Virus record (IMG/VR): IMGVR_UViG_3300009419_001390
Length of the DNA: 64,000 nucleotides
DNA from: a virus
Lineage: Duplodnaviria > Heunggongvirae > Uroviricota > Caudoviricetes
Strand: one strand, 5' to 3'
Shown piece by piece: positions 1 through 54,964 of the stretch. The notes below the pieces were generated by a model, which did not search any database, was not told the origin of the DNA, and saw only the letters and a program-made list of their open reading frames with translations. The first letter of the stretch is position 1, and every line of letters begins with the position of its first letter. A program made the translations under genes and the position numbers.

Positions 1-85
1 AATAAATATATACTGTAAGTTATTGCTGTATGAAGCGGATAGAAAAGTGTTCTGGACGCGGGTTCGACTCCCGCCTGGTCCACCA
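1..85 (+). ncRNA. ssrA: tmRNA acceptor piece of a circularly permuted (two-piece) ssrA: T-arm, 3-prime acceptor strand, discriminator A and CCA; 5-prime end may lie upstream of window
   Basis: GGACGCGGGTTCGACTCCCGCC + CTGGTCC-A-CCA (54..85) is near-identical to the E. coli tmRNA 3-prime end; no complementary 5-prime acceptor strand within 80 nt upstream, but one lies 90 nt downstream. Confidence 0.6.
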
Positions 86-98
86 TAAGGAGATTGGT

Positions 99-173
99 AT
101 GAATGACAACCTGGGTAGTTTGGCGATAGGGGTAGTTGTTGTACTGGTAGTGTTTGCACTAGTCCTTTTATGA
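99..173 (+). CDS. hypothetical 24-aa hydrophobic peptide (MNDNLGSLAIGVVVVLVVFALVLL) inside the tmRNA intervening segment
   Basis: AAGGAG 6 nt upstream of ATG; single TM-like peptide; may be coincidental because permuted-tmRNA intervening segments are normally excised. Confidence 0.2.
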   Translation: MNDNLGSLAIGVVVVLVVFALVLL

Positions 174-174
174 T

Positions 175-428
175 GGGCCAGTCATGGTTTCGACAGGGCA
201 AAGAGTAAGCAAGTGGACAGCACGGTAAGGCAGAAACCGTAGGGTTGGGGGAACTCGGCCGTAGACGCAAAAAAAGTAAATGCAAAAGCAAATACACAAT
301 CTGGTGTTAAAGTAACAGTAGGCAAAGGTTTCCGTTTCGGCGGTTCCAAGTCTGCTCGCACTGAGGCAGCTTTCGCCTAAACAGCGAAACCAGCGGGGTA
401 GGACTTACCCTGTCAAATAAACAACCAT
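175..428 (+). ncRNA. ssrA: tmRNA coding piece: 5-prime acceptor strand GGGCCAG, D-loop analogue GGUUUCGACAGGG, tag reading frame ending ...TEAAFA-UAA (stop 378..380)
   Basis: GGGCCAG (175..181) pairs with CUGGUCC (75..81) including a G3·U70 wobble (alanine identity); downstream GGUUUCGACAGGG matches E. coli GGAUUCGACGGG; UAGAC-GCA resembles the E. coli resume context UAGUC-GCA; 3-prime boundary approximate. Confidence 0.5.
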
Positions 429-718: not shown

Positions 719-1363
719 ATGAAACCCACCATCGCAATGTTTTTGTACCAGCCCAGGGCGTCTGTGCAATGCGGAAATGCAATGATGGAGGCCCTTTCCG
801 AGTATTATAAATTCAAAATCTTCACCAAGCAGAACATGGAAAAAGATTTCTTTGATGGCGTGGACATTGTGGCTTTTCCCGGAGGCGACGGGGATAGTGA
901 AAGCTATCATTTTCTAATGAAGCACCACGAACATCGAATCAAAAACTTTGTAAACAATGGCGGCCGATACCTGGGCATTTGCATGGGAGCCTACTGGGCA
1001 GGGTCCCATTACTTTGATATCCTAGACGGAGTGGATGCTGTGCAGTACATCACACAACCCAACACAGACACACGCCGCCCACATGCCAAGGCCTGCCCTG
1101 TAAACTGGCAAGGTGAAGATATGAAAATGTACTTCTATGACGGCTGTGCTCTGGCAGGCGATGAAAGCAAATTTGACACTGTTGCCCGTTACGCAAACGG
1201 TGACCCGATGGCCATATATCAGGATCGTATTGGAATAATGGGATGCCATCCTGAAAGCGAACAGTGGTGGTATGACATGCACAACTATCTCAAACCACAC
1301 TATCATAACGGCTATCATCATCAACTACTGTTAGACTTTACAAACGATCTAATGAAAAGATAA
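719..1363 (+). CDS. class I glutamine amidotransferase-like / peptidase C26-like protein
   Basis: GICMGAY nucleophile-elbow motif (G-x-C-x-G) and downstream GCHPE (His-Pro-Glu of the GATase triad). Confidence 0.5.
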
Positions 1364-1386: not shown

Positions 1387-1545
1387 ATGAAACAGAAAAA
1401 ACTTTTAGTTGAACTGTACAGGGCTTGCGTCGACCACGATGCCAAAAAGATTGCGGAGCTTCGTCAAGAAGAATTCCGCAAGATTGCGAAACACAAGGCC
1501 GAAGGCAAACCTTTTACACATAAATGGACTTTGGTAAGGATTTAA
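1387..1545 (+). CDS. hypothetical 52-aa basic protein
   Basis: AGGAGG SD 10 nt upstream of ATG; not in ORF track (<60 aa). Confidence 0.4.
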
Positions 1546-1597
1546 GTTCGTAACACAACTGTAATCTTTGTAACACAATGCTACGATAAATACTGCT

Positions 1598-2482
1598 ATG
1601 CAGAAAACTTATCGTAGCATTTTTATTTCTGACGTACACCTTGGCACCAGAGATTGCAAGGCAGAGCAACTCAACAACTTTCTCAAACACAACACATGCG
1701 ACACACTCTACATGGTAGGGGATATCATTGACGCATGGCGAATACAACAAAACAAATGGCGATGGAAACAAAGCCATACCAATGTGGTACGCAGAGTCAT
1801 GGGTCACGCCAAGCGCGGTACCCGTGTGGTGTATGTGGCAGGCAATCACGATGAGTTTTTAAGACCACTCATACCCCTGGGCATTGGCTTTGGCCTTATT
1901 GAAGTGTGCAATCAAACAGAACACATAGGTGTGGACGGCAAACACTATCTTGTGGTACACGGAGACTTGTTTGACGGCATTACTAGACTGGCCCCGTGGA
2001 TAGCATTTTTAGGAGACAAAGCATATGACATTGTTCTTAACCTCAACAATAAATTTAATTGGATTCGTCGCCGTATGGGTTTTGGGTACTTTAGCCTTAG
2101 CAAGTTTCTTAAGCACAAGGTCAAAAAAGCAGTAGACTTTGTGTTCAAGTTTGAAGAGAACTTGGCCAACTACTGTAAGAAGCGTGGCTTTGATGGTGTG
2201 ATCTGCGGACACATACATCACGCAGAGATAAAAGAAATCAATGGTGTCACATACATGAATGACGGCGACTGGGTTGAGTCATGCACAGCACTGGTAGAAC
2301 ATCATGACGGTCGCTGGGAAATTGTGACCTGGACCAAGGAGCATGACAATGTGGCTGATGATATTAATAGCGGTACACATCAACGACCCGCAAGATCAAC
2401 CCGGAAAAATAGAGCTGGTGTTTCCGGATCAACAGACCTGCCAGCAGGTGTTGAACACAATCACGTGGCAACTAAAGTTTAA
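1598..2482 (+). CDS. LpxH-like calcineurin-type metallophosphoesterase (UDP-2,3-diacylglucosamine hydrolase family architecture)
   Basis: FISDVHLG, GDIIDAW, GNHDE, GHIHH motifs co-linear with E. coli LpxH (IADLHL, GDLFEAW, GNRD, GHTHRP). Confidence 0.6.
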   Translation: MQKTYRSIFISDVHLGTRDCKAEQLNNFLKHNTCDTLYMVGDIIDAWRIQQNKWRWKQSHTNVVRRVMGHAKRGTRVVYVAGNHDEFLRPLIPLGIGFGLIEVCNQTEHIGVDGKHYLVVHGDLFDGITRLAPWIAFLGDKAYDIVLNLNNKFNWIRRRMGFGYFSLSKFLKHKVKKAVDFVFKFEENLANYCKKRGFDGVICGHIHHAEIKEINGVTYMNDGDWVESCTALVEHHDGRWEIVTWTKEHDNVADDINSGTHQRPARSTRKNRAGVSGSTDLPAGVEHNHVATKV

Positions 2483-2503
2483 GAATTTCAAGGTGGTAGC
2501 AGA

Positions 2504-3223
2504 ATGCAAGAAACAATCCTAAGTGAAAAAATTACAATCGTGATCCCTTGCAAGAACGAGGAGAATTACATTGGATACTTGTTATTACATCTACGCAATC
2601 AACTGATTGGTAGTACTAGAATTATTATTGCAGACTGTTCTACAGATAACACTCGAGAAGTGATTCAAAAGTTAAAGGGTAAATTGAATGTTGAAATCAT
2701 TGATGGTGGTCCAGTCAGCCAGGCCAAGAACCGCGGAGCTGCCTTGGTTACCACACCCTACATCTTGTTCATTGATGCTGATGTTCGCTTCTTCAATGTC
2801 AACACGATTCGTGATGCAGTAGCCAAATTGGAATCTAAGAACCTAGATCTACTAGGGCTGAACATCAAATGCTATGACAACGACAAACGTGCCAGCATTG
2901 GCTTTGCTGTGTTCAACGGTATCAATCGCGTTCTAAAACATTTCAGTCCATTTGCTGTGGGCGCATTCATGCTCACACGCAGAGACCGGTTTGAAGAGTA
3001 CGGCGGCTTTCCTGAGCAGATGTCAACTTCTGAAGACTACTTCCTATCTAGATGCTACAGCCCAAAAAAGTTTAGCATACTCAATCACTATTTTGGACAA
3101 GACAGCCGTAGGTTTAAGAAGATGGGCTATTTTGGTATGGCCAAGTACTTGGTCCAGAACTTTGTTAACCGCAACAACAAGAAGTACTGGGACAGTTTGG
3201 ACAACAGCAAATACTGGTCATGA
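2504..3223 (+). CDS. family 2 glycosyltransferase
   Basis: N-terminal ITIVIPCKNEE, DxD-like FIDADV, GT-A fold pattern. Confidence 0.6.
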   Translation: MQETILSEKITIVIPCKNEENYIGYLLLHLRNQLIGSTRIIIADCSTDNTREVIQKLKGKLNVEIIDGGPVSQAKNRGAALVTTPYILFIDADVRFFNVNTIRDAVAKLESKNLDLLGLNIKCYDNDKRASIGFAVFNGINRVLKHFSPFAVGAFMLTRRDRFEEYGGFPEQMSTSEDYFLSRCYSPKKFSILNHYFGQDSRRFKKMGYFGMAKYLVQNFVNRNNKKYWDSLDNSKYWS

Positions 3224-3246
3224 CAGTCGCTTTGGTGCCTTTTTAT

Positions 3247-3276
3247 TTGACATCAGTAGTAACCAGCATATATAAT
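3247..3276 (+). promoter_or_regulatory. sigma70 consensus promoter TTGACA-18-TATAAT
   Basis: perfect hexamers upstream of OMP gene pair. Confidence 0.6.
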
Positions 3277-3322
3277 CCATGTGTTGCGTAACAGCGCACA
3301 TTTTCAAAAAGGAAATTTTCAA

Positions 3323-3880
3323 ATGAAGAAGTTTATCGCATTGGCCGCACTATTGGCCGCAAGCACTGCCTTTGCAGGCGGTTTTGGCTCTGTTGAATAC
3401 AGTGGTCGTGACGGCGTTGATGGTACAGCAGATGCTCGTGCCACCAAGGTAACCATGGGCACAGATATCAATCAACTGTTGAAGGCCGATTTCAGTCTAC
3501 GTCAAAAGACCAACACTGACAACGATCTCAGCGACACACGCCTGGAAGGTGGCCTAACAGCCACGCAACCAATTGGCGGCACTGGGTTCAGCGTGTATGG
3601 TCGTGGTGCAGTGGGTGAGAAGTTCAAGACTTCGGCCAACTATACCTACTACTCAGTGGAGCCAGGCATCAAGTATGCGGTGACTCCGGCACTGAGTGTC
3701 AAAGCAGGCTATCGCTATCGTGCCGCACTAGACAGTGCAAACGCAGACACCACTCGTACATACCGTTTGGGTGCTGAGTATGCACTGACCAAGAACTACT
3801 TTGTTGGCCTAGGCTACGATCAAGTTCGCGGTGACAGCACATACAATGCTACCAACGTCGCTGTTGGTTTCAAGTTCTAA
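3323..3880 (+). CDS. small outer-membrane beta-barrel protein (signal peptide, C-terminal Phe), paralog 1
   Basis: MKKFIALAALLAASTAFA signal peptide; alternating amphipathic strands; terminal VGFKF typical of OMP beta-signal. Confidence 0.55.
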   Translation: MKKFIALAALLAASTAFAGGFGSVEYSGRDGVDGTADARATKVTMGTDINQLLKADFSLRQKTNTDNDLSDTRLEGGLTATQPIGGTGFSVYGRGAVGEKFKTSANYTYYSVEPGIKYAVTPALSVKAGYRYRAALDSANADTTRTYRLGAEYALTKNYFVGLGYDQVRGDSTYNATNVAVGFKF

Positions 3881-3902
3881 TCTAGAACTATTCAACCACA
3901 AC

Positions 3903-3926
3903 AGGGGCCTTGGCCCCTGTTCTTAT
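3903..3926 (+). terminator. rho-independent terminator (AGGGGCC-TTG-GCCCCT + T-rich)
   Basis: hairpin immediately after OMP-1 stop. Confidence 0.5.
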
Positions 3927-3936
3927 AGGAAAACTT

Positions 3937-4494
3937 ATGTTTAATCAATTAAAAAATGTTTTGCTACTACTAGCAATCACCACCGGAGTTGCACAAGCCC
4001 AGACCTTTGCTGGCATCAACAGCATGTTTGGAAAAAGTCCAACTGGCGCAACAGACACAGGATATCAGTTTGTTGTGGGTCATCGCATGGACAACGTTAT
4101 TGTTGATGCCATTGCTGAAACTGTGATTCCAGATGCTACCAAAGTTGCAATCAATCGACTGGAAGGTGGTGCGAGTTTGTTATTGCCCACTGGCACTGTA
4201 ATCACACCCTATGTGCGTACTGCTCTAGGAATCAAAACTGTGGGTGGCAATCAGTTTGCCTACTACAGTGCCGAACCAGGTGTGCGAATGGCCGTTGGAC
4301 CTGGCACTGCTAGATTAGGCTGGAGATATCGCAATGCAGTTGATGCTGACCAATACAATGACAACACACGTGGATGGCGTGCCGTTTATGTGTTGCACAT
4401 GTCCAAGACCTTGGATATCAACTTTGCCTATGAATCTGTTCGTGGTGATGCTAATTACGACGGAGTCATGACAGGCTTCACAGTACGATTTTAA
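3937..4494 (+). CDS. small outer-membrane beta-barrel protein, paralog 2
   Basis: signal peptide LLLLAITTGVAQA; same conserved blocks as 3323..3880 (EPG..A.GP, GWRYR, Y-x-x-VRGD); terminal TVRF. Confidence 0.55.
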   Translation: MFNQLKNVLLLLAITTGVAQAQTFAGINSMFGKSPTGATDTGYQFVVGHRMDNVIVDAIAETVIPDATKVAINRLEGGASLLLPTGTVITPYVRTALGIKTVGGNQFAYYSAEPGVRMAVGPGTARLGWRYRNAVDADQYNDNTRGWRAVYVLHMSKTLDINFAYESVRGDANYDGVMTGFTVRF

Positions 4495-4509: not shown

Positions 4510-4537
4510 TTGACGAGCTTTTTTGTTCGTGTATAAT
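4510..4537 (+). promoter_or_regulatory. sigma70-like promoter TTGACG-16-TATAAT
   Basis: upstream of ahpC. Confidence 0.5.
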
Positions 4538-4572
4538 ATACACATTAATTCATTGTTATAGAGGAAATCAAA

Positions 4573-5112
4573 ATGAAAACAGTTGGACACAAGTTAGAAA
4601 AATTCGCAGTCACGGGTGTCAAGCCTGGACAGCCAGAAGATGCGTTCTTCGAAATTACAGATGAGAGCTTTCCCGGCAAGTGGAAGGTAATTGTTTACTA
4701 TCCAAAAGACTTCACATTCGTTTGCCCTACAGAAATTGTAGCCTACGACAAACTAACAGGTGACTTTGCCGACCGTGATGCAGTCCTGCTTACAGGTTCA
4801 ACAGACAATGAGTTCTGTAAAGTCAGCTGGCAAACAGCTCATGCTGATTTGAAGAAAATCACACACAACCAGTTCGCTGACACACAACGTGGCGAGTTGA
4901 GTCTTATCGATCAATTAGGAGTTTTCTATGCTCCAGCAGGTGCCGCACTTCGCGCAACATTCATCGTTGATCCAGACAACGTTATCCAACACGTTACAGT
5001 CAACAACTTGAACGTAGGCCGTAGCCCAGAAGAAACACTTCGTGTTCTTGATGCGTTACAAACTGGCGAGCTGTGTGCATGTAACCGTACAGTTGGCGGT
5101 GAAACACTTTAA
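4573..5112 (+). CDS. ahpC: peroxiredoxin (AhpC/TSA family, 2-Cys type)
   Basis: FTFVCPTEI peroxidatic-Cys motif; resolving Cys near C-terminus (ELCAC); length 179 aa. Confidence 0.8.
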   Translation: MKTVGHKLEKFAVTGVKPGQPEDAFFEITDESFPGKWKVIVYYPKDFTFVCPTEIVAYDKLTGDFADRDAVLLTGSTDNEFCKVSWQTAHADLKKITHNQFADTQRGELSLIDQLGVFYAPAGAALRATFIVDPDNVIQHVTVNNLNVGRSPEETLRVLDALQTGELCACNRTVGGETL

Positions 5113-5291
5113 TGTTAGAAATATTTCAACGAGGTGTTGAAACATTGCGACAGCCCGATCGTAATCCTAGATGTTATGAAATGACAGAACAGGAACGATT
5201 GGATCGTATTCGCGAGTGGAACAATCGTAATGTTTGGAACACCCCAGAACTTGCTGAAGAAGATGAACTGAACTTCTATCAAGGAGCATAG
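5112..5291 (+). CDS. hypothetical 59-aa protein, translationally coupled (TAATG)
   Basis: start overlaps ahpC stop; stop abuts next ATG; not in ORF track (<60 aa). Confidence 0.4.
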   Translation: MLEIFQRGVETLRQPDRNPRCYEMTEQERLDRIREWNNRNVWNTPELAEEDELNFYQGA

Positions 5292-5504
5292 ATGAAACAA
5301 CAATTACTTAGTGCATTGGAAGCAAACTTTTCAGCACAACTGACCAAGCACAAAATGAATGTGGAGATCATGTTGAACAACCCTATGGCCATTCATGATC
5401 ACACTGACTGGATGGCGGCTGTGGAAACTGAAATTGCGCACATTGCGGAATATGAAGATAAACTAGAAGTGTTGCAAAAATACTTTGTTTCTGGAAAATA
5501 TTAA
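5292..5504 (+). CDS. hypothetical 70-aa protein
   Basis: ORF track; packed between ahpC and ahpD. Confidence 0.45.
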   Translation: MKQQLLSALEANFSAQLTKHKMNVEIMLNNPMAIHDHTDWMAAVETEIAHIAEYEDKLEVLQKYFVSGKY

Positions 5505-5505
5505 A

Positions 5506-6015
5506 ATGAATTTTATTGAATCAGTAAAAGGTGCGTTACCAGACTACGCCAAAGATACAAAATTAAATCTAGATGCGGTGTTACTGCGTAGCACACTAGA
5601 CGCAGATGTGGCCATGGGATGTGCCGTAGCCGCACTGGCCGCAACAGGCAATGGCAAAATTCTGTCAGTAATTTTAGCAGATGCTCCTGTACATGCAGAG
5701 TCAGCAATGACAGCCGCCAGCATCATGGCACAGAACAACGTATGGTATCCCTATGTTGAAATGGCAGATGATGCCGCACTCAAAGGTTTGCCAGCACAGT
5801 TACGCATGAATGCTATTGCAAGTCATGGTGGAACTACCAAAGCAAACTTTGAAGCATTCTCGTTGGCCGCAAGTATTGTGGGCAAGTGTCACTTCTGTGT
5901 TAAGGCACACTATGACACATTGAAGAACTCAGAAGGCTACACAGTGGAACAACTTCGTGACATTGGGCGCATTGCATCAGTTATGAATTCAGTTGCTAAA
6001 GTTCTTAACAGTTAA
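5506..6015 (+). CDS. ahpD: alkylhydroperoxidase AhpD-like (carboxymuconolactone decarboxylase family)
   Basis: GKCHFCVKAH matches the AhpD catalytic signature C-H-[YF]-C-x-x-x-H; about 170 aa. Confidence 0.6.
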   Translation: MNFIESVKGALPDYAKDTKLNLDAVLLRSTLDADVAMGCAVAALAATGNGKILSVILADAPVHAESAMTAASIMAQNNVWYPYVEMADDAALKGLPAQLRMNAIASHGGTTKANFEAFSLAASIVGKCHFCVKAHYDTLKNSEGYTVEQLRDIGRIASVMNSVAKVLNS

Positions 6016-6026
6016 TTGGAGACAAA

Positions 6027-6446
6027 ATGTTAGAATGTTTGATACTCGGAGATTCAATAGCAGTGGGCACATCACAGGCTAGACCTGAGTGTGTTAGTTA
6101 CAGCAAAGGCGGATGGAATAGTTGGCAATGGAACAAGGACTATCTTTCCAAAGCATCCAACCAACCCTCCAAAACAATTATCATCAGTCTAGGTGCTAAT
6201 GATCATAAAGGTGTCAAGACAGAAGCAGAACTACGTAAAATGCGCGAAGCGATCAAAGGAGATCGTGTGTACTGGATTGATCCAGGACAGGATCGTAAAC
6301 CTATTCCACACGATGCAATCGTTCGGATTGCTAAAGAGTACGGGGATACAATCATTGCTCGACCTAAAAATCACATGAGTGCTGACGGTGTACATCCTAC
6401 TGGTACAGGATACAAAATAATTGCTGAGCAAACAAAAGGCAAGTGA
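6027..6446 (+). CDS. SGNH/GDSL-family hydrolase
   Basis: N-terminal LILGDSIAVG (GDS block I) and C-terminal SADGVHPT (DxxH block V). Confidence 0.55.
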   Translation: MLECLILGDSIAVGTSQARPECVSYSKGGWNSWQWNKDYLSKASNQPSKTIIISLGANDHKGVKTEAELRKMREAIKGDRVYWIDPGQDRKPIPHDAIVRIAKEYGDTIIARPKNHMSADGVHPTGTGYKIIAEQTKGK

Positions 6447-6640: not shown

Positions 6641-6758
6641 GCCTCGTGAATTTCACTAGCCAAGATTAATGATTTCCTGGATATGATTTGACCATTTTTT
6701 GTCGTATAATCTTCATACATACTAAGACATCAACAGTATGTCATTCAAGGAGAAAATT

Positions 6759-6833
6759 ATGAAATGGTCTACACCAACTGCACAAGACATGCGTTTCGGC
6801 TTCGAAATTACCATGTACATTGCAAATCGTTAA
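6759..6833 (+). CDS. pqqA: PqqA-like peptide (coenzyme PQQ precursor), MKWSTPTAQDMRFGFEITMYIANR
   Basis: 24 aa; AAGGAG SD; conserved E-x-x-x-Y core and about 60 percent identity to Pseudomonas/Acinetobacter PqqA ([23 protein letters not shown]) from memory; own terminator. Confidence 0.6.
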   Translation: MKWSTPTAQDMRFGFEITMYIANR

Positions 6834-11090: not shown

Positions 11091-11882
11091 ATGCGTATTT
11101 TGACTCTTTCCGTTCTTGCCGCGGCTGTGTTGGCAACAGGTTGTACTCGTATTGAAACGGGTGAAGTTGGTGTGCGAGTTGGTTTTGACCGCCAGGTTCA
11201 GCCAGGCGAACTCATGCCTGGCTCATTCAATCAAGTGTTGATCGGTGATGTGCTCACATTTCCTATCAAGGACGTGAATGTCACATTAGAGAACATGACT
11301 CCTGTGGCCAAAGACAACTCAACCATGAAAGACTTTGATGCAGTGGTTGTTTACAACATCAATCCACAGCAGGTCAGTGAATTGTACGCAACCAAGAACA
11401 AAGCATTCCACGCTGAGTTCAAAGGTGATACCTATGTGATGTACAACTACATTGTACAAAATGCTCGTAACGCTATCTACAAAGCCGCTCGTAAGTATGA
11501 GGCCTTGGACATGGCCGACAATCGCGGTGAAATGGAAAAGTTCATCCAAGACGAGATTGTTCGCAACTTGGCTGAAGAAAAGTTAGACGGTACTATTATG
11601 ATCAGCCAAGTGTTGATTCGTAATGTTGTGCCAGCTGACTCTGTGGTTGAAAGTGCTAACGCATTGGTTCGTTCAAAGAACGAATTGAAGCAGAAGGAAG
11701 TTGAAGTCAAAACTGCTGAAGCCGAATCGCGTCGTATGGCAGCACTGGCCAACAACTCAGGTGCAAGTATTGCATTCATGCAAGCACAGGCCATGTTGAA
11801 CATCTCAGAAGGTATCAAGAACGGTCAAGTGCAGACCATTGTGGTGCCCTCAAACTTCAACGCATTGATGATGCCTAAATAA
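11091..11882 (+). CDS. SPFH/band-7 (prohibitin/stomatin-like) lipoprotein
   Basis: lipobox LATGC; TGEVGVRVGF... SPFH-like core followed by coiled-coil; AAGGAAA SD. Confidence 0.5.
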   Translation: MRILTLSVLAAAVLATGCTRIETGEVGVRVGFDRQVQPGELMPGSFNQVLIGDVLTFPIKDVNVTLENMTPVAKDNSTMKDFDAVVVYNINPQQVSELYATKNKAFHAEFKGDTYVMYNYIVQNARNAIYKAARKYEALDMADNRGEMEKFIQDEIVRNLAEEKLDGTIMISQVLIRNVVPADSVVESANALVRSKNELKQKEVEVKTAEAESRRMAALANNSGASIAFMQAQAMLNISEGIKNGQVQTIVVPSNFNALMMPK

Positions 11883-14267: not shown

Positions 14268-15089
14268 ATGCGAATAAATGTAATTTCTGATCTTCATCTT
14301 GAGTTTGGCGACCTAGAGTTGCCAGGCGGAGATGTGCTGATCTTGTCAGGTGATGTGTGCGAAAGCCGCACCTTGCTCAAGAACAAGTATGACCCAATGA
14401 ACATCATGACTGAAGTAGGAGATCCCAAGCGCCAAGATCGTGCTCAACGTTTCTTCATTGAAGAATGTGCCAAGTACCGCGAAGTTATCTATGTCATGGG
14501 CAACCATGAACACTATCACGGTCGCTATGACAAAACTGTGCATGAGCTCAAGGCCACTGTGCCTGACAATGTGTCAGTGCTGGAAAATGAATCAATTGAA
14601 ATTGATGGTGTGTTGTTCTTGGGTGCCACACTGTGGACTGACTGCAATCGCGGCAATCCCATGTGCATACAGGTGCTCAAGCATGGTATGAATGACTATC
14701 GTGCTATCACCAACAAAGCAGGCGCCATCTACCGCAAGCTGACTCCGCAGGATACCATGGAAACTCACATGCGTACCAAGGAGTATTTCAAGACCATGCT
14801 GGAACTGAATCGTGACAAGAAGGTGGTGGTTTGTACACATCATGCACCCAGCTACCTGAGTGTGCATGAGCACTACAAGCATGATACTGACATGAATGGT
14901 GGCTATGCATCGGACCTGAGCGAGTTCATACTGGATCATGAAAACATCCTGTTCTGGACACATGGACACATGCATGACCCCAGCGACTACATGATCGGAC
15001 AATGTCGTGTGATCTGTAACCCACGTGGCTACAGAGGATACGAACAGCAAGCAAATACATTTGACCCCACTGTGGGATTTGATATATAA
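14268..15089 (+). CDS. calcineurin-like metallophosphoesterase
   Basis: ISDLHLE, LSGDV, GNHEHY, CTHHAP, GHMHD phosphoesterase motifs. Confidence 0.6.
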   Translation: MRINVISDLHLEFGDLELPGGDVLILSGDVCESRTLLKNKYDPMNIMTEVGDPKRQDRAQRFFIEECAKYREVIYVMGNHEHYHGRYDKTVHELKATVPDNVSVLENESIEIDGVLFLGATLWTDCNRGNPMCIQVLKHGMNDYRAITNKAGAIYRKLTPQDTMETHMRTKEYFKTMLELNRDKKVVVCTHHAPSYLSVHEHYKHDTDMNGGYASDLSEFILDHENILFWTHGHMHDPSDYMIGQCRVICNPRGYRGYEQQANTFDPTVGFDI

Positions 15090-47915: not shown

Positions 47916-48829
47916 AAGAATTGTGGGTAGAAAAATACCGTCCCAAGACCATGGGCGAATATGTGTTCATTGATGACACACAGCGTGATCAAGTTGCGGC
48001 TTGGGTCAAAGATGGACACATCCCACATTTGTTGCTGAGTGGAGGTCCTGGCACTGGCAAGACCACACTAGCACGTATGCTGATCAATGAGCTCAAGATT
48101 GACGAATACGATGTGATGCAGATCAATGCCAGTAACGAAACCAAGGTTGAGATCATGCGTGACAAGGTACTTGGCTTTGCAAGTACCATGCCGTTTGGTG
48201 AGTTCAAAGTTATCCTGTTAGACGAGGCAGACTATCTAAGTCCCAACTCACAGGCATTGTTGCGTAATGCAATGGAAACATATCACGCCAGTGTGCGTTT
48301 TATATTCACTTGCAATGCGCCACACAAGATTATTCCTGCACTGCATTCACGGTGCCAGGGTTTTCATATTGCCAAACAGGATCATACAGAGTTTACAGCT
48401 AGAGTGGCCACTGTGTTGGTAACAGAAGGCATTGATTTTGATATTGACACACTGGACAGTTATGTCAAAGCAACATATCCTGATCTGCGTAAATGTTTGA
48501 ATCTGGTGCAATTGAACGGACAAGATGGCGCTCTCAAGAAACCACGTGAAGGTGACAAGTCTGTAAGTGACTGGAAACTTGACACTGTGGAACTGTTCAA
48601 ATCTGGCAAAATTCGCGAAGCACGTCAATTGCTATGCACACAAGCGGCTCCAGAAGAAATGGAAGATGTATTCCGTTGGATGTATGACAACGTCGACATC
48701 TGGGGCAAAACACCAGAACAACAAGACTCTGCTATCTTAATCATTCGCAAAGGTTTGGTCAACCATACCATGTGTGCTGATTCTGAAATCAATTTGAGTG
48801 CTACAATAATTGAGCTTACACAACTTTAA
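47912..48829 (+). CDS. sliding-clamp loader AAA+ subunit (T4 gp44 / RFC small subunit-like)
   Basis: Walker A GGPGTGKTT, Walker B ILLDEAD, SRC motif (HSRCQGF). Confidence 0.75.
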   Translation: MKELWVEKYRPKTMGEYVFIDDTQRDQVAAWVKDGHIPHLLLSGGPGTGKTTLARMLINELKIDEYDVMQINASNETKVEIMRDKVLGFASTMPFGEFKVILLDEADYLSPNSQALLRNAMETYHASVRFIFTCNAPHKIIPALHSRCQGFHIAKQDHTEFTARVATVLVTEGIDFDIDTLDSYVKATYPDLRKCLNLVQLNGQDGALKKPREGDKSVSDWKLDTVELFKSGKIREARQLLCTQAAPEEMEDVFRWMYDNVDIWGKTPEQQDSAILIIRKGLVNHTMCADSEINLSATIIELTQL

Positions 48830-49938
48830 TGCAAGACTTTGAAATACTTGAACCTTTCCCTGGTCCTGAAAGCAAGATGTCTTTTTTGCTGGATTGGGAG
48901 CTCACTCTCAAGTGTAACCTAGATTGTTCCTACTGCGGCGATGGTCATGACAACAGCACCAAACATCCACCTGTTGCGGAATGTCTAGAAACCATTGACT
49001 TTATGTACAAGTACGTGGATCTCTATATGCAACATAGAATTCGTGGCTTGCAAAGAGTGGTTCTAAATGTGTATGGCGGAGAAAGTCTGCATCATCCAGA
49101 TATTGTCCAGGTGCTAGAACAGGTACGTGCTCGATACCAACCTTATCGAGACCGTTGGAATCTGTGTATAACCACCACAACCAATGCCATTGTTAGTTCA
49201 GCCAAGCTGGAAAAAATCATTCCATTGATTGATGAATTTACAGTAAGCTATCATACAGAATCCACAGACAAGCAAAAAGATCTGTTTAGAAAAAATATAC
49301 TTCAAATCAAAGCCGCTGGCAAAGATATAAAATGTGTGGTGCTGATGCATCCACAAGGCGAATTATTTGATGATGCTCAGCACATGGTCAGCTGGCTGGA
49401 AAAAAATCAAGTTAGACTATTGCCGCGTCAATTGGACCATCAAGAACCTGAAAAATACACTTACAAAGAGCACCAAGTGGTATGGTTTGATAAATTATAC
49501 AACAAAAGCAGTTACGGAGTTGATGTTCAATTGCCTGCAGGAGATACGGATCTAACGCAGACTGGACGAAGCTGTTGTGGTGGCAAACAGCTTTGTGGGG
49601 ATAATAATTTTACCCAACGTCACAGTTTTGTAAACAATGTTTTCACTGGCTGGAGTTGTTCAGTCAACTGGTTCTTTTTATTTGTCAAACAGGTAACAGG
49701 ACATATATACACCAATAGAGATTGTCAGATGAATCTTGAAGGAACTGTGGGTCCAATTGGGCATTTAGATCGCACCCAACAACTGCTGGAAACTCTGGAA
49801 CAACAATTGACTACTGGCACTGTTCCAGTTATTACTTGTGCTAAAAAAATCTGCTATTGTGGATTGTGTGCGCCCAAAGCACAAACCAAAGATCAGTTTG
49901 TAGAAATGTTCAAAAAATATCAAGGAGTAAAAACGTGA
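48829..49938 (+). CDS. radical SAM enzyme with Cys-rich C-terminal (SPASM/twitch-like) region
   Basis: CNLDCSYC (CxxxCxxC) and GGE(S) motif; C-terminal SCCGGKQLC...CAKKICYCGLC. Confidence 0.6.
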   Translation: MQDFEILEPFPGPESKMSFLLDWELTLKCNLDCSYCGDGHDNSTKHPPVAECLETIDFMYKYVDLYMQHRIRGLQRVVLNVYGGESLHHPDIVQVLEQVRARYQPYRDRWNLCITTTTNAIVSSAKLEKIIPLIDEFTVSYHTESTDKQKDLFRKNILQIKAAGKDIKCVVLMHPQGELFDDAQHMVSWLEKNQVRLLPRQLDHQEPEKYTYKEHQVVWFDKLYNKSSYGVDVQLPAGDTDLTQTGRSCCGGKQLCGDNNFTQRHSFVNNVFTGWSCSVNWFFLFVKQVTGHIYTNRDCQMNLEGTVGPIGHLDRTQQLLETLEQQLTTGTVPVITCAKKICYCGLCAPKAQTKDQFVEMFKKYQGVKT

Positions 49939-53029: not shown

Positions 53030-54964
53030 ATGGGCAAAATCATCGGTATCGATCTGGGTACCACAAACTCGTGTGTTGCCGTAATGGAAGGCAACGTTCC
53101 AAAAGTAATCGAAAACAGCGAAGGCGCACGTACTACCCCTAGTATTGTAGCATACGCCAATGACGAAGTCTTGGTTGGTGCAAGTGCAAAACGTCAGGCT
53201 GTGACCAATTCAAAGAACACCATCTACGCCGCCAAGCGTCTGATTGGTCGTAAGTTCAAAGAAGACGCTGTGCAGAAAGACATCGATATGATGCCTTTCA
53301 AAATTGTTGAAGCTAAAAATGGTGATGCTTGGATCAGCGCCAACAACAGCGAACTAGCACCACCGCAAATCTCAGCTGAGGTATTGCGTAAAATGAAACA
53401 AACTGCTGAGGCATACCTTGGCACAGAAGTAACCCAAGCAGTTATCACAGTTCCTGCTTACTTCAATGACTCACAACGTCAAGCAACCAAAGACGCAGGT
53501 AAAATTGCAGGCCTAGAAGTGTTGCGTATCATCAATGAACCAACAGCGGCGGCTCTTGCTTATGGCATGGACAAAGCCACCAAGAAGGATGCCAAGATTA
53601 TTGTTTATGATCTAGGTGGCGGCACATTTGACGTATCGGTCATTGAAATTGCCAACGTGGATGGTGACAAACAGTTTGAAGTTCTTGCTACCAATGGTGA
53701 CACATTCTTGGGCGGTGAAGACTTTGACCAACGCATCATGGACTACTTGGTTGAAGAGTTCCAAAAAGAATCAGGTGTTGATCTAAGCAAGGACACACTG
53801 GCACTGCAACGTCTAAAGGACAGCGCAGAAAAGGCCAAGATTGAACTGTCTAGCAACACACAAACAGAAATCAACTTGCCTTATATCACAGCTGATGCAA
53901 GCGGTCCCAAGCACATGGCAATCAAACTAAGTCGTAGCAAGCTGGAAGGCTTGGTAACAGACTTGGTAGAACGTTCAATTGAACCATGCCGCATTGCTCT
54001 CAAGGATGCAGGCCTAACTACTGCCGACATTGACGACATTATCCTTGTTGGTGGACAAACACGCATGCCCATGGTACAAGGCTACGTGGAAAGTTTCTTT
54101 GGCAAGGCACCACGCAAAGACGTGAACCCAGGCGAAGCAGTGGCCGCGGGTGCGGCTATCCAGGGTGCTGTGTTGGCTGGAGACAAAACGGATGTTCTAC
54201 TCCTAGATGTCACACCACTCTCACTGGGTATCGAAACGCAAGGTGGAATTATGGCCAAGGTTATTACCAAGAACACAACCATTCCTACCAAGCAAACACA
54301 AGTGTTCTCCACAGCCGAGGACAATCAACCTGCGGTAACTATCAAGGTACATCAAGGTGAACGTGAAATGGCTCAGCACAACAAACTGTTGGGCGAGTTC
54401 AACTTAGAAGGTATTCCACCTGCCGCACGTGGCACACCGCAGATTGAAGTTACATTTGATGTGGACGTAAACGGTATCCTCAAGGTAAGTGCCAAAGACA
54501 AAGTCACAGGCAAGAGCAACAACATTACTATCAAGGCCAATTCAGGTCTGACAGAAGCCGAAATTGCACAGATGGTTGCGGATGCAGAAGCTAATGCCGA
54601 AGCTGACAAGAAGCAACGTGAACTGGTTGAGACTCGAAATGCGGCTGAACATCAAGTGTGGGGAGTTGAGAAAAATCTCAAGGAGCACGGTGACAAACTA
54701 TCTGAAGAAGAGCGCGAAGCAATTAAAACTGCCTTGCACGATTTCAAGAAAGTGCTGTCAGATGAAACAGATCCAGACAAGATCAATGAAGCTCTGCAGG
54801 CATTTGTACCAAAAGCCATGCCATTGTTTAACCTAGCCGGTCAAGCCGAAGAGGAAAAACAAAAGGCTGATGCTGAAGAAGTTAAATCCAAGAAGGAAGG
54901 CAAAGACGATAATGTAGTTGATGCTGAATTTACGGAAGTCAAAAAAGACGAAGAGTCTAAATAA
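53030..54964 (+). CDS. dnaK: molecular chaperone DnaK (Hsp70)
   Basis: [36 protein letters not shown] and full-length Hsp70 architecture ending in Glu/Lys-rich tail. Confidence 0.9.

What the first reader, a model, noticed from the sequence alone, without database searches (positions are those of the whole stretch)
1598..4494. Cell-envelope module: LpxH-like phosphoesterase, GT2 glycosyltransferase and two paralogous small OMP beta-barrels
An LpxH-architecture metallophosphoesterase and a GT2 transferase could alter lipid A or LPS. They are followed, behind a perfect sigma70 promoter, by two signal-peptide-bearing proteins of about 165-175 mature residues with a C-terminal Phe and shared strand blocks. 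These look like 8-stranded OMPs of the OmpW/OmpX/OmpA-beta class. Phage-encoded OMPs and LPS modifiers in lytic phages usually mediate superinfection exclusion or receptor masking.
Basis: partly seen in the sequence, partly recalled or inferred. Interest (0 to 1): 0.6.

Follow-up and report, generated by a model that had tools for sequence, protein, structure and literature searches.

The report
Phage lipid-remodelling genes plus outer-membrane barrels
A freshwater T4-like phage carries its own copy of the bacterial PlcP phospholipase C, paired with a glycosyltransferase, which probably turns host membrane phospholipids into phosphorus-free glycolipids; beside this pair sit two separately transcribed small outer-membrane barrel proteins of unknown role.

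Summary
All four genes, the perfect sigma-70 promoter, both signal peptides, the C-terminal Phe and the OMP paralogy are real. The interpretation needs revising.

The "LpxH-like" enzyme fails the curated LpxH models (47.8 bits against a cut-off of 134). It is 47-58% identical to proteobacterial genes that sit in plcP-agt or plcP-btaA operons, so it is a PlcP-type phospholipase C of the phosphate-starvation lipid-remodelling pathway, not a lipid A enzyme.

In 75 of 78 informative related phage contigs this gene is directly followed by a glycosyltransferase: either this GT2 (43) or an Agt-like GT4 (32). Distant phage lineages again pair a PlcP-like gene with this GT2 family. In relatives, PstS flanks the pair, and in one a phosphate-selective porin follows PstS.

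The best reading is a phage phosphorus-scavenging lipid-remodelling module. This appears undescribed for phages in the literature I could search.

The OMPs are genuine beta-barrels. The OMP1 model (pLDDT 89.5) has 10 strands, not 8. They belong to a phage-borne family, have their own early promoter, and are only loosely linked to PlcP. Their function is unresolved.

The parts
719..1363 (+). BPL_N / class I glutamine-amidotransferase-like protein (214 aa from the ATG). It is a frequent neighbour of the PlcP gene in related phages. Its role is unknown.
   Evidence: Pfam BPL_N 1.3e-12. GICMG and GCHPE motifs are visible in the translation. A homologue (60% identity) sits in the same position in the distant relative L008.
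1387..1545 (+). Conserved 52-aa gene immediately upstream of the PlcP gene.
   Evidence: 45% identical to the 53-aa gene in the same position in L008 (E 1e-16). Found in many IMG/VR loci. No Pfam family.
1598..2482 (+). PlcP-like metallophosphoesterase (phospholipase C type). The catalytic domain ends at about residue 248 (about nt 2344). The C-terminal tail is poorly conserved.
   Evidence: Metallophos 1.3e-11. LpxH equivalogs score 47.8 against a cut-off of 134 and 38.6 against 190. 47-58% identical to 80 bacterial genes, 65 of them followed by an Agt-like GT4 and 2 by a BtaA-type DUF3419 gene. All metal-binding motifs are invariant. The tail length varies in relatives, with matches ending between residues 248 and 294.
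2343..2522 (+). Conserved 59-aa overlapping gene between PlcP and the GT. It has a hydrophobic N-terminus and two cysteines that are also present in the L008 homologue.
   Evidence: 45% identical to the 60-aa gene of L008 (E 2e-19). This frame is better conserved than the PlcP tail frame: mean 64% identity in 80 loci against 45% in 54 loci.
2504..3223 (+). GT2 (GT-A fold) glycosyltransferase, the proposed diacylglycerol glycosyltransferase partner of PlcP.
   Evidence: PF00535 2.6e-18; PF13506 (GT21) 26.2 bits against a cut-off of 21.7. AF2 model pLDDT 95, GT-A fold. DxD residues D91/D93 are invariant. Directly downstream of PlcP in 43 of 78 informative loci, and replaced by an Agt-like GT4 in 32. 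Distant homologues again lie beside PlcP-like genes.
3247..3276 (+). Consensus sigma-70 (early) promoter for OMP1 and OMP2.
   Evidence: TTGACA-18-TATAAT, 12/12. It belongs to a set of 7 near-consensus sites, all on the + strand.
3323..3880 (+). OMP1: a secreted small outer-membrane beta-barrel with 10 predicted strands.
   Evidence: PF13505 3e-8. AF2 pLDDT 89.5 with 10 strands. Foldseek matches to PDB barrels. TM 0.82-0.87 to uncultured-phage proteins. 181 metagenomic clusters and 190 IMG/VR loci.
3900..3921 (+). Terminator-like hairpin between OMP1 and OMP2.
   Evidence: 9-bp GC-rich stem followed by UUCUUAU; -16.3 kcal/mol, z -2.5.
3937..4494 (+). OMP2: a divergent paralogue of OMP1 from a rare subfamily.
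   Evidence: 38% identical to OMP1 over 112 aa, E 7e-18. Aligns full-length with the family's invariant residues. Only 10 clusters in 5.8 billion proteins.

Best explanation
The region holds two separate things.

(1) A phage copy of the bacterial PlcP lipid-remodelling pathway, at 1387-3223. The metallophosphoesterase is a PlcP-type phospholipase C. It would cleave host phospholipids into diacylglycerol plus a phosphorylated head group, from which host phosphatases can free phosphate for phage DNA synthesis. The GT2 immediately downstream is proposed to glycosylate the diacylglycerol into a phosphorus-free glycolipid, keeping the membrane intact until lysis. It takes the place of the Agt (GT4) enzyme used by bacteria and by sister phages. 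Two small conserved genes (52 aa and an overlapping 59 aa) and a GATase1-like gene accompany the pair.

(2) Two early-transcribed morons, OMP1 and OMP2. These are small, roughly 10-stranded outer-membrane barrels of a phage-borne family. They are exported by Sec and presumably inserted by the BAM machinery. Their role is unresolved; candidates are a narrow channel or a surface change.

Shown here: the family assignment by homology and synteny, the PlcP-GT coupling, the phosphate-gene context, and the barrel fold. Inferred: the substrates, the glycolipid product, the phosphate benefit, and the OMP function.
For: PlcP rather than LpxH:
- LpxH equivalog HMMs are missed by a wide margin. Bacterial plcP-context proteins score the same way, 27-54 bits across the two models.
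- The protein is 47-58% identical over its full length to 80 proteobacterial genes. Of these, 65 are followed by a GT4 that is 38-45% identical to the phage GT4, and 2 by a BtaA-type DUF3419 gene. These are the published plcP contexts (PMC4796936, PMC9239053, PMC8528852).
- Characterised PlcPs are themselves only 46-51% identical to one another (PMC8528852, PMC9239053).
- The catalytic motifs are intact.

PlcP-GT coupling:
- 75 of 78 informative IMG/VR loci have a GT directly downstream, GT2 in 43 and GT4 in 32. The GT type does not follow PlcP similarity.
- GT2 homologues at 50% and 36% identity in other phage lineages are again adjacent to PlcP-like genes at 43% and 40% identity, in a different gene order.

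Phosphate context:
- L263 has PlcP-GT2-PstS-Porin_O_P.
- PstS flanks the pair in 9 more loci and in Pelagibacter phage Mosig.

OMPs.
Against: - No experimentally characterised PlcP sequence could be fetched, so the link is through synteny-defined bacterial orthologues.
- None of the 80 bacterial plcP loci contains a homologue of this GT2, so its acceptor is inferred only from position.
- The closest solved structures to the GT2 model are generic GT-A enzymes: a polyprenyl-phosphate-type mannosyltransferase and the teichoic-acid enzymes TarS and TarP.
- No Pho box is detectable (9 matches against 9.5 expected, none upstream of the gene).
- This window itself has no PstS or OprP.
- No promoter was identified for the PlcP operon.
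- The OMP function is not constrained by any test.
Confidence: 0.65

Rival explanations
1. One reading: an LpxH-type lipid A enzyme and a GT2 modify lipid A or LPS, and together with the two OMPs they form one receptor-masking or superinfection-exclusion module.
For: - LpxH is the nearest solved structure by sequence (E 4e-4) and the top NCBIfam hit.
- The GT2 has a weak PHROG hit to GtrB-like O-antigen conversion (3e-6).
- The OMPs are real and are expressed early.
Against: - LpxH cut-offs are missed by about 90-150 bits.
- The orthologues sit in plcP-agt or plcP-btaA operons.
- No lipid A, GtrA or GtrC gene is among the neighbours.
- Relatives place PstS and a phosphate porin beside the pair.
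- The OMPs are only occasionally near PlcP and have their own promoter.
Confidence: 0.06
2. The enzymes do remodel phospholipids into glycolipids, but the benefit is not phosphorus supply. Instead the altered membrane blocks genome injection by competing phages, resists host or antimicrobial attack, or tunes the timing of lysis.
For: - The enzymology is the same as in the best explanation.
- Lipid remodelling changes phage attachment and antibiotic sensitivity in bacteria (PMC9938194, PMC8528852, PMC9804370).
- This window lacks PstS and no Pho box was found.
Against: PstS recurs next to the pair in at least 11 phage loci, and a phosphate-selective porin is present in L263. Both point to phosphorus economy.
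Confidence: 0.15
3. PlcP is correctly assigned, but the GT2 is not its lipid partner. It glycosylates something else, such as a polyprenyl phosphate, O-antigen, teichoic-acid-like polymer, protein or DNA, and merely shares an operon.
For: - No bacterial plcP locus carries this GT2.
- The best structural matches are PcManGT, TarS and TarP.
- The enzyme has no transmembrane segment.
Against: - It occupies exactly the slot of the Agt-like GT4 among closely related phages.
- It stays adjacent to PlcP-like genes in two distant phage lineages despite gene-order changes.
- It passes the GT21 model, a family of lipid glycosyltransferases.
- GT-A type diacylglycerol glycosyltransferases next to plcP have precedent in bacteria (Pgt; PMC4796936).
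Confidence: 0.14

Closest known systems
Bacterial PlcP-Agt lipid-remodelling pathway (S. meliloti SMc00171, Phaeobacter MED193_17359, P. aeruginosa PA3219/PA3218, SAR11 HTCC7211)
   Same: - A metallophosphoesterase of the LpxH-related PlcP group, with 47-58% identity to genes in plcP-agt operons.
- A glycosyltransferase gene immediately downstream.
- Phosphate-stress gene neighbours in relatives.
- Sister phages carry a true Agt-like GT4.
   Different: - It is encoded by a lytic T4-like phage.
- In this window Agt is replaced by a 239-aa GT2 that is absent from the 80 bacterial plcP loci.
- Extra conserved small genes of 52 and 59 aa are present.
- No Pho box was detected.
LpxH (UDP-2,3-diacylglucosamine diphosphatase)
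   Same: Same superfamily, the same metal-binding motifs, and alignment across the inserted cap region. It is routinely used as the annotation for these genes.
   Different: It scores 47.8 and 38.6 bits against cut-offs of 134 and 190. There is no lipid A gene context. The orthologues are PlcP.
Phage phosphate-stress auxiliary genes (pstS, phoA, phoH of cyanomyoviruses and pelagiphages)
   Same: It lies in the same hypervariable island of T4-like aquatic phages, adjacent to PstS in relatives, and has the same presumed selective pressure (own knowledge of the cyanophage literature).
   Different: It acts on an internal phosphorus pool (membrane lipids) rather than on uptake.
Phage-encoded outer-membrane beta-barrels (Pfam PF24653 Phage_OMP; lambda Lom; OMPs annotated in Vibrio phage nt-1, Aeromonas phage phiAS5 and S-CBWM1)
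   Same: - A signal peptide and a C-terminal aromatic residue.
- A small barrel, expressed as a moron.
- Relatives at 46-47% identity pass PF24653.
   Different: - OMP1 and OMP2 do not hit PF24653 themselves.
- The model has 10 strands with very short loops.
- There is no homologue in any isolated phage record.

Membership tests
LpxH (UDP-2,3-diacylglucosamine diphosphatase) | Reaches the curated equivalog HMM cut-off | tested here: not met
   NF003743 scores 47.8 bits against a cut-off of 134. TIGR01854 scores 38.6 against 190.35.
LpxH (UDP-2,3-diacylglucosamine diphosphatase) | Lipid A pathway gene context | tested here: not met
   The neighbours are a GATase1-like gene, small ORFs, GT2, the OMPs, AhpC/AhpD and a GDSL-like gene. 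The whole 64-kb window was not screened gene by gene.
PlcP phospholipase C | Full-length homology to genes in plcP-agt or plcP-btaA operons, at the level seen among characterised PlcPs (46-51%) | tested here: met
   47-58% identity to 80 bacterial loci. 65 have an Agt-like GT4 downstream and 2 have a DUF3419/BtaA-type gene. The published identities come from PMC8528852 and PMC9239053.
PlcP phospholipase C | Intact metallophosphoesterase metal-binding motifs (DxH, GD, GNH, H, GHxH) | tested here: met
   D12, H14, D42, N83, H84, H121, H205 and H207 are invariant in the alignment.
PlcP phospholipase C | Groups with experimentally characterised PlcPs and away from LpxH in a phylogeny | not tested
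   Reference sequences (SMc00171, MED193_17359, PA3219) could not be fetched. A rough NJ tree places the window's clade inside the bacterial plcP-context radiation.
PlcP phospholipase C | Mn-dependent hydrolysis of phospholipids to diacylglycerol | not testable with these tools
   This requires a biochemical assay.
PlcP phospholipase C | Pho-box or PhoB control (usual in bacteria, but not defining) | tested here: not met
   CTGTCAT-N4-CTGTCAT with up to 3 mismatches gives 9 hits against 9.5 expected, none upstream of the gene.
Agt (GT4 diacylglycerol glucosyl/glucuronosyl transferase) | GT4 / GT-B fold with homology to agt | tested here: not met
   The window gene is GT2 / GT-A. Sister phages do carry an Agt-like GT4.
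GT2 / GT-A glycosyltransferase | PF00535 above cut-off, a DxD motif and a GT-A fold | tested here: met
   67 bits against a cut-off of 23.3. D91-x-D93 is invariant. The model has pLDDT 95 and matches GT-A enzymes.
GT21-type lipid glycosyltransferase (ceramide glucosyltransferase / Pgt) | PF13506 above cut-off over the whole domain | tested here: inconclusive
   26.2 bits against a cut-off of 21.7, but only model positions 29-136 of 174 are covered. The L263 homologue scores 28.3.
Outer-membrane beta-barrel (PF13505 OMP_b-brl) | HMM above cut-off, signal peptide, C-terminal aromatic residue, predicted closed barrel | tested here: met
   OMP1 scores 34.5 against a cut-off of 28.7, has an AFA|GG cleavage site and a terminal Phe, and gives a barrel model of pLDDT 89.5. 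OMP2 qualifies only through homology to OMP1.
8-stranded OmpA / OmpX / OmpW class | Eight transmembrane strands | tested here: not met
   The model has 10 strands. The best PDB match is a designed 10-strand barrel, TM 0.71 normalised by the target.
Pfam PF24653 Phage_OMP (cyanophage OMP-like barrel) | HMM above cut-off | tested here: inconclusive
   OMP1 and OMP2 give no hit even at E up to 10. Relatives P0107 and P0103 (46-47% identical to OMP1) pass with 33.9 and 32.4 bits against a cut-off of 27.

The most novel reading that the evidence does not exclude
Abundant freshwater T4-like phages actively convert the host's membrane phospholipids into glycolipids during infection. They use their own PlcP and a phage-specific GT2-type diacylglycerol glycosyltransferase that has no counterpart beside bacterial plcP. 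This forms part of a mobile phosphate-acquisition island that in relatives also carries PstS and an OprP-type porin. The small 10-strand OMPs occupying the same slot would be further envelope or uptake devices. Together this would be a new class of viral auxiliary metabolism, mining the host's own membrane for phosphorus.
Probability: 0.4. Interest if true: 0.75.

Novelty: new variant of a known kind. Interest (0 to 1): 0.6.

Why it matters
Phosphorus often limits production in lakes and oceans, and phage DNA synthesis demands a great deal of it. Known phage phosphorus genes (pstS, phoA, phoH) act on uptake or regulation. A phage-borne PlcP-glycosyltransferase pair would instead tap the phospholipid pool of the infected cell, adding a new route by which viruses rewire host phosphorus and lipid budgets.

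The genes are very common. They are routinely mis-annotated as LpxH or as LPS enzymes, so existing surveys of viral auxiliary genes probably overlook them.

The GT2/GT4 cassette swap offers a natural experiment for discovering a new lipid glycosyltransferase family. Everything is directly testable by heterologous expression and lipidomics.

Tried and rejected
- Megablast of the region against 50,697 phage records gave no match.
- tblastn of OMP1 and of a more distant OMP relative against isolated phages gave no match. The OMP family is therefore known only from uncultured phages.
- A Pho-box search was at chance level.
- The late-promoter-like motif ATAAATAC occurs upstream of the 52-aa and PlcP genes and upstream of two structural genes. 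It gave only 6 hits against 2.3 expected, so it was not used as evidence.
- PHROGs gave only generic names.
- PDB sequence and fold searches of the GT2 gave only generic GT-A relatives.
- Source names for GT2 relatives are generic: "glycosyltransferase involved in cell wall biosynthesis".
- Literature searches for phage-encoded PlcP found nothing. The library lacks most subscription papers, so this is weak negative evidence.
- PMC6052262 (PlcP biochemistry) is not held.
- The idea that the OMPs were recently captured from a host was rejected, because every context inspected was phage.
- The idea that the four genes form one operon was rejected on the basis of the promoter and the synteny data.
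Full report
OBSERVATION.
- Pfam assigns Metallophos to 1598-2482, Glycos_transf_2 to 2504-3223 and OMP_b-brl to 3323-3880. The fourth ORF, 3937-4494, has no Pfam hit, but it is 38% identical to the third over 112 residues (E 7e-18) and aligns with it end to end.
- The promoter TTGACA-18-TATAAT at 3247-3276 is perfect. It is one of seven sites scoring at least 11/12, all on the coding strand, against about one expected per strand, so it belongs to a real class of early promoters.
- Both OMPs have a typical signal peptide with an A-x-A cleavage site and end in Phe.
- A 9-bp GC-rich hairpin followed by UUCUUAU separates them.

WHAT THE WINDOW IS. It is a T4-like aquatic myophage.
- Nearly all large ORFs are on one strand.
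- It has a virion protein matching phrog_5838 at 5.5e-214, baseplate-wedge-like repeats and a clamp loader.
- It shows 40-44% identity to structural proteins of Synechococcus phages S-CAM1 and S-CAM3.
- Relatives carry gp32, gp59 and T4 baseplate genes.
- There is no nucleotide match to any isolated phage.

THE PHOSPHOESTERASE IS PlcP-LIKE, NOT LpxH.
- LpxH models align across residues 6-228 but score 47.8 and 38.6 bits against curated cut-offs of 134 and 190. Solved LpxH structures match only at E about 4e-4 over the N-terminal half.
- A scan of one genome per bacterial species returned 80 loci, the maximum kept, with 47-58% full-length identity. They include Pseudomonas, Caulobacter, Mesorhizobium, Labrenzia, Methylotenera and Thiobacillus among others.
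- In 65 of these loci the next gene is a GT4 that is 38-45% identical to the GT4 found in sister phages. In two more it is a DUF3419 (BtaA-type) gene.
- These are the published genomic contexts of plcP. Type 2 is plcP-agt, type 1 is plcP-btaAB, and other types have further glycosyltransferases, including the Pgt type (PMC4796936). The same is reported in PMC9239053 and in PMC8528852 for PA3219/PA3218.
- Characterised PlcPs are only 46-51% identical to one another (PMC8528852, PMC9239053), and LpxH serves as their outgroup (PMC9239053).
- Bacterial proteins from these plcP contexts score 27-54 bits on the LpxH models, just like the phage protein.
- All metal-binding motifs are invariant, so the enzyme is probably active.
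- The same mis-annotation as "LpxH + RfaG" appears for phosphate islands of marine bacteria (PMC10734472).

THE GLYCOSYLTRANSFERASE IS COUPLED TO IT.
- IMG/VR holds at least 600 matching stretches. Of the 80 loci kept, all 77-92% identical, the gene starting about 25 nt after the PlcP stop is a homologue of this GT2 in 43 and a roughly 335-aa GT4 in 32. In 2 loci the contig ends, and 3 have something else, including a third GT-like protein.
- PlcP from GT4-type loci is as similar to the window's PlcP (82.6%) as PlcP from GT2-type loci (79.9%). The two transferases are therefore interchangeable cassettes in one slot.
- The GT2 family comprises about 65 clusters at E below 1e-30, mostly around 235 aa. 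Two distant members, at 50% and 36% identity, lie in other phage lineages and are again adjacent to PlcP-like genes at 43% and 40% identity, once in reversed order.
- None of the 80 bacterial plcP loci has this GT2.
- The model is a confident GT-A fold (pLDDT 95) with an invariant DxD motif. Its nearest solved structures are generic: PcManGT, TarS and TarP. It also passes the GT21 model.

PHOSPHATE CONTEXT.
- In relative L263 (PlcP 79% and GT2 79% identical) the order is OMP2-like, PlcP, GT2, PstS-type binding protein (8.6e-36), phosphate-selective porin O/P (3.2e-53), then AhpC and AhpD.
- PstS flanks the pair in nine more of the 80 loci and in Pelagibacter phage Mosig.
- The window itself has neither PstS nor the porin, and no Pho box was detectable.

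ACCESSORY GENES.
- A 59-aa ORF (2343-2522) overlaps the PlcP tail in another frame. It is 45% identical to the corresponding gene of a distant relative (E 2e-19) and is better conserved than the tail frame. The tail's length also varies among relatives. The small ORF is therefore a real gene, and PlcP residues from about 250 to 294 are probably dispensable.
- The 52-aa gene upstream is likewise conserved.
- A BPL_N/GATase1-like gene with Cys and His-Glu motifs is a frequent neighbour.

THE OMPs.
- The OMP1 model is a closed barrel of 10 strands with short loops (pLDDT 89.5). Its best solved match is a designed 10-strand barrel. Among predicted viral structures it matches six uncultured-phage proteins at TM 0.82-0.87.
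- By strand parity, the family's invariant residues (R73, E75, Y92, R94, Y109, E113, R131, R148) fall on the polar, lumen-facing side. This is my inference from the sequence and the secondary structure.
- The family has 181 protein clusters and 190 IMG/VR loci. Every context inspected is a T4-like phage, often next to a SleB-like hydrolase, dsbA, gp59 and gp32.
- Relatives pass Pfam's Phage_OMP model, but OMP1 and OMP2 do not.
- The OMP2 type is rare, with 10 clusters.
- Only about 7 of the 80 OMP loci have PlcP within 4 kb.
- The OMPs are therefore independent early morons lying in the same variable island.

MECHANISM.
- Shown: homology, synteny, intact motifs, the predicted folds and the phosphate-gene neighbours.
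- Inferred: PlcP cleaves PE, PG or PC to diacylglycerol plus a phospho-head group. Host phosphatases release phosphate for phage nucleotide synthesis. The GT2 converts diacylglycerol to a glycolipid, probably beta-linked because GT2 enzymes invert, so that the membrane survives until lysis. The OMPs are exported by Sec and inserted by BAM early in infection.

LIMITS.
- There was no direct comparison with a characterised PlcP sequence.
- The NJ tree is rough. It nests the window's clade within the bacterial PlcP radiation, nearest Methylotenera.
- The GT2 acceptor is unproven and the OMP function is open.
- The literature library is incomplete.

Noticed in passing
window 24-310 (+): A permuted (two-piece) tmRNA gene: Rfam tmRNA_permuted 97.3 bits (cut-off 47), E 1.3e-18. 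It also resembles beta_tmRNA (62.9 bits, below that family's cut-off). ARAGORN missed it. A hairpin terminator follows at 427-444. It is a possible clue to a betaproteobacterial host.
   Followed up: partly
window 4510-6015 (+): An AhpC-like peroxiredoxin (4573-5112) and an AhpD-like alkylhydroperoxidase (5485-6015) sit behind an 11/12 sigma-70 promoter (4510-4537). The pair is conserved in many related phage contigs and is often followed by a GDSL-like gene (6027-6446).
   Followed up: partly
window 6738-6833 (+): A 31-aa ORF, MSFKEKIMKWSTPTAQDMRFGFEITMYIANR, resembles the PqqA precursor peptide. The equivalent ORF in relatives L261 and L262 is flagged PF08042 PqqA. The window also has a radical-SAM gene at 48829-49938.
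   Followed up: no
L263 8295-10728: A related phage carries a PstS-like phosphate-binding protein and a 468-aa phosphate-selective porin (Porin_O_P, 3.2e-53) directly after PlcP-GT2. This is the slot that holds OMP1 and OMP2 in the window.
   Followed up: partly
window 2343-2522 (+): A conserved 59-aa gene overlaps the 3' end of the PlcP ORF and the start of the GT2. The PlcP tail frame is less conserved than this frame.
   Followed up: yes
window 719-1363 (+): A BPL_N / class I glutamine-amidotransferase-like protein with GICMG and GCHPE motifs recurs near PlcP in many phage contigs but is absent from the bacterial plcP loci. Its function is unknown.
   Followed up: partly
window 3247, 4510, 10829, 14233, 16980, 21674, 52070 (+): Seven near-consensus sigma-70 promoters (three of them perfect) lie on the coding strand and none on the other strand. 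This implies a proteobacterial-type host RNA polymerase for the early genes.
   Followed up: partly
window 53030-54964, 14268-15089 and 11091-11882 (+): The phage also encodes a full-length DnaK (about 65% identical to DnaK sequences found in the phage-record collection), a second unrelated metallophosphoesterase (phrog_1649) and an SPFH/Band 7 protein.
   Followed up: no
L008 3189-4410: A more distant relative that carries the same OMP / BPL_N / PlcP / GT4 block also encodes heme oxygenase and a ferredoxin-dependent bilin reductase, as well as ClpS, HSP20 and ribosomal protein S21.
   Followed up: no
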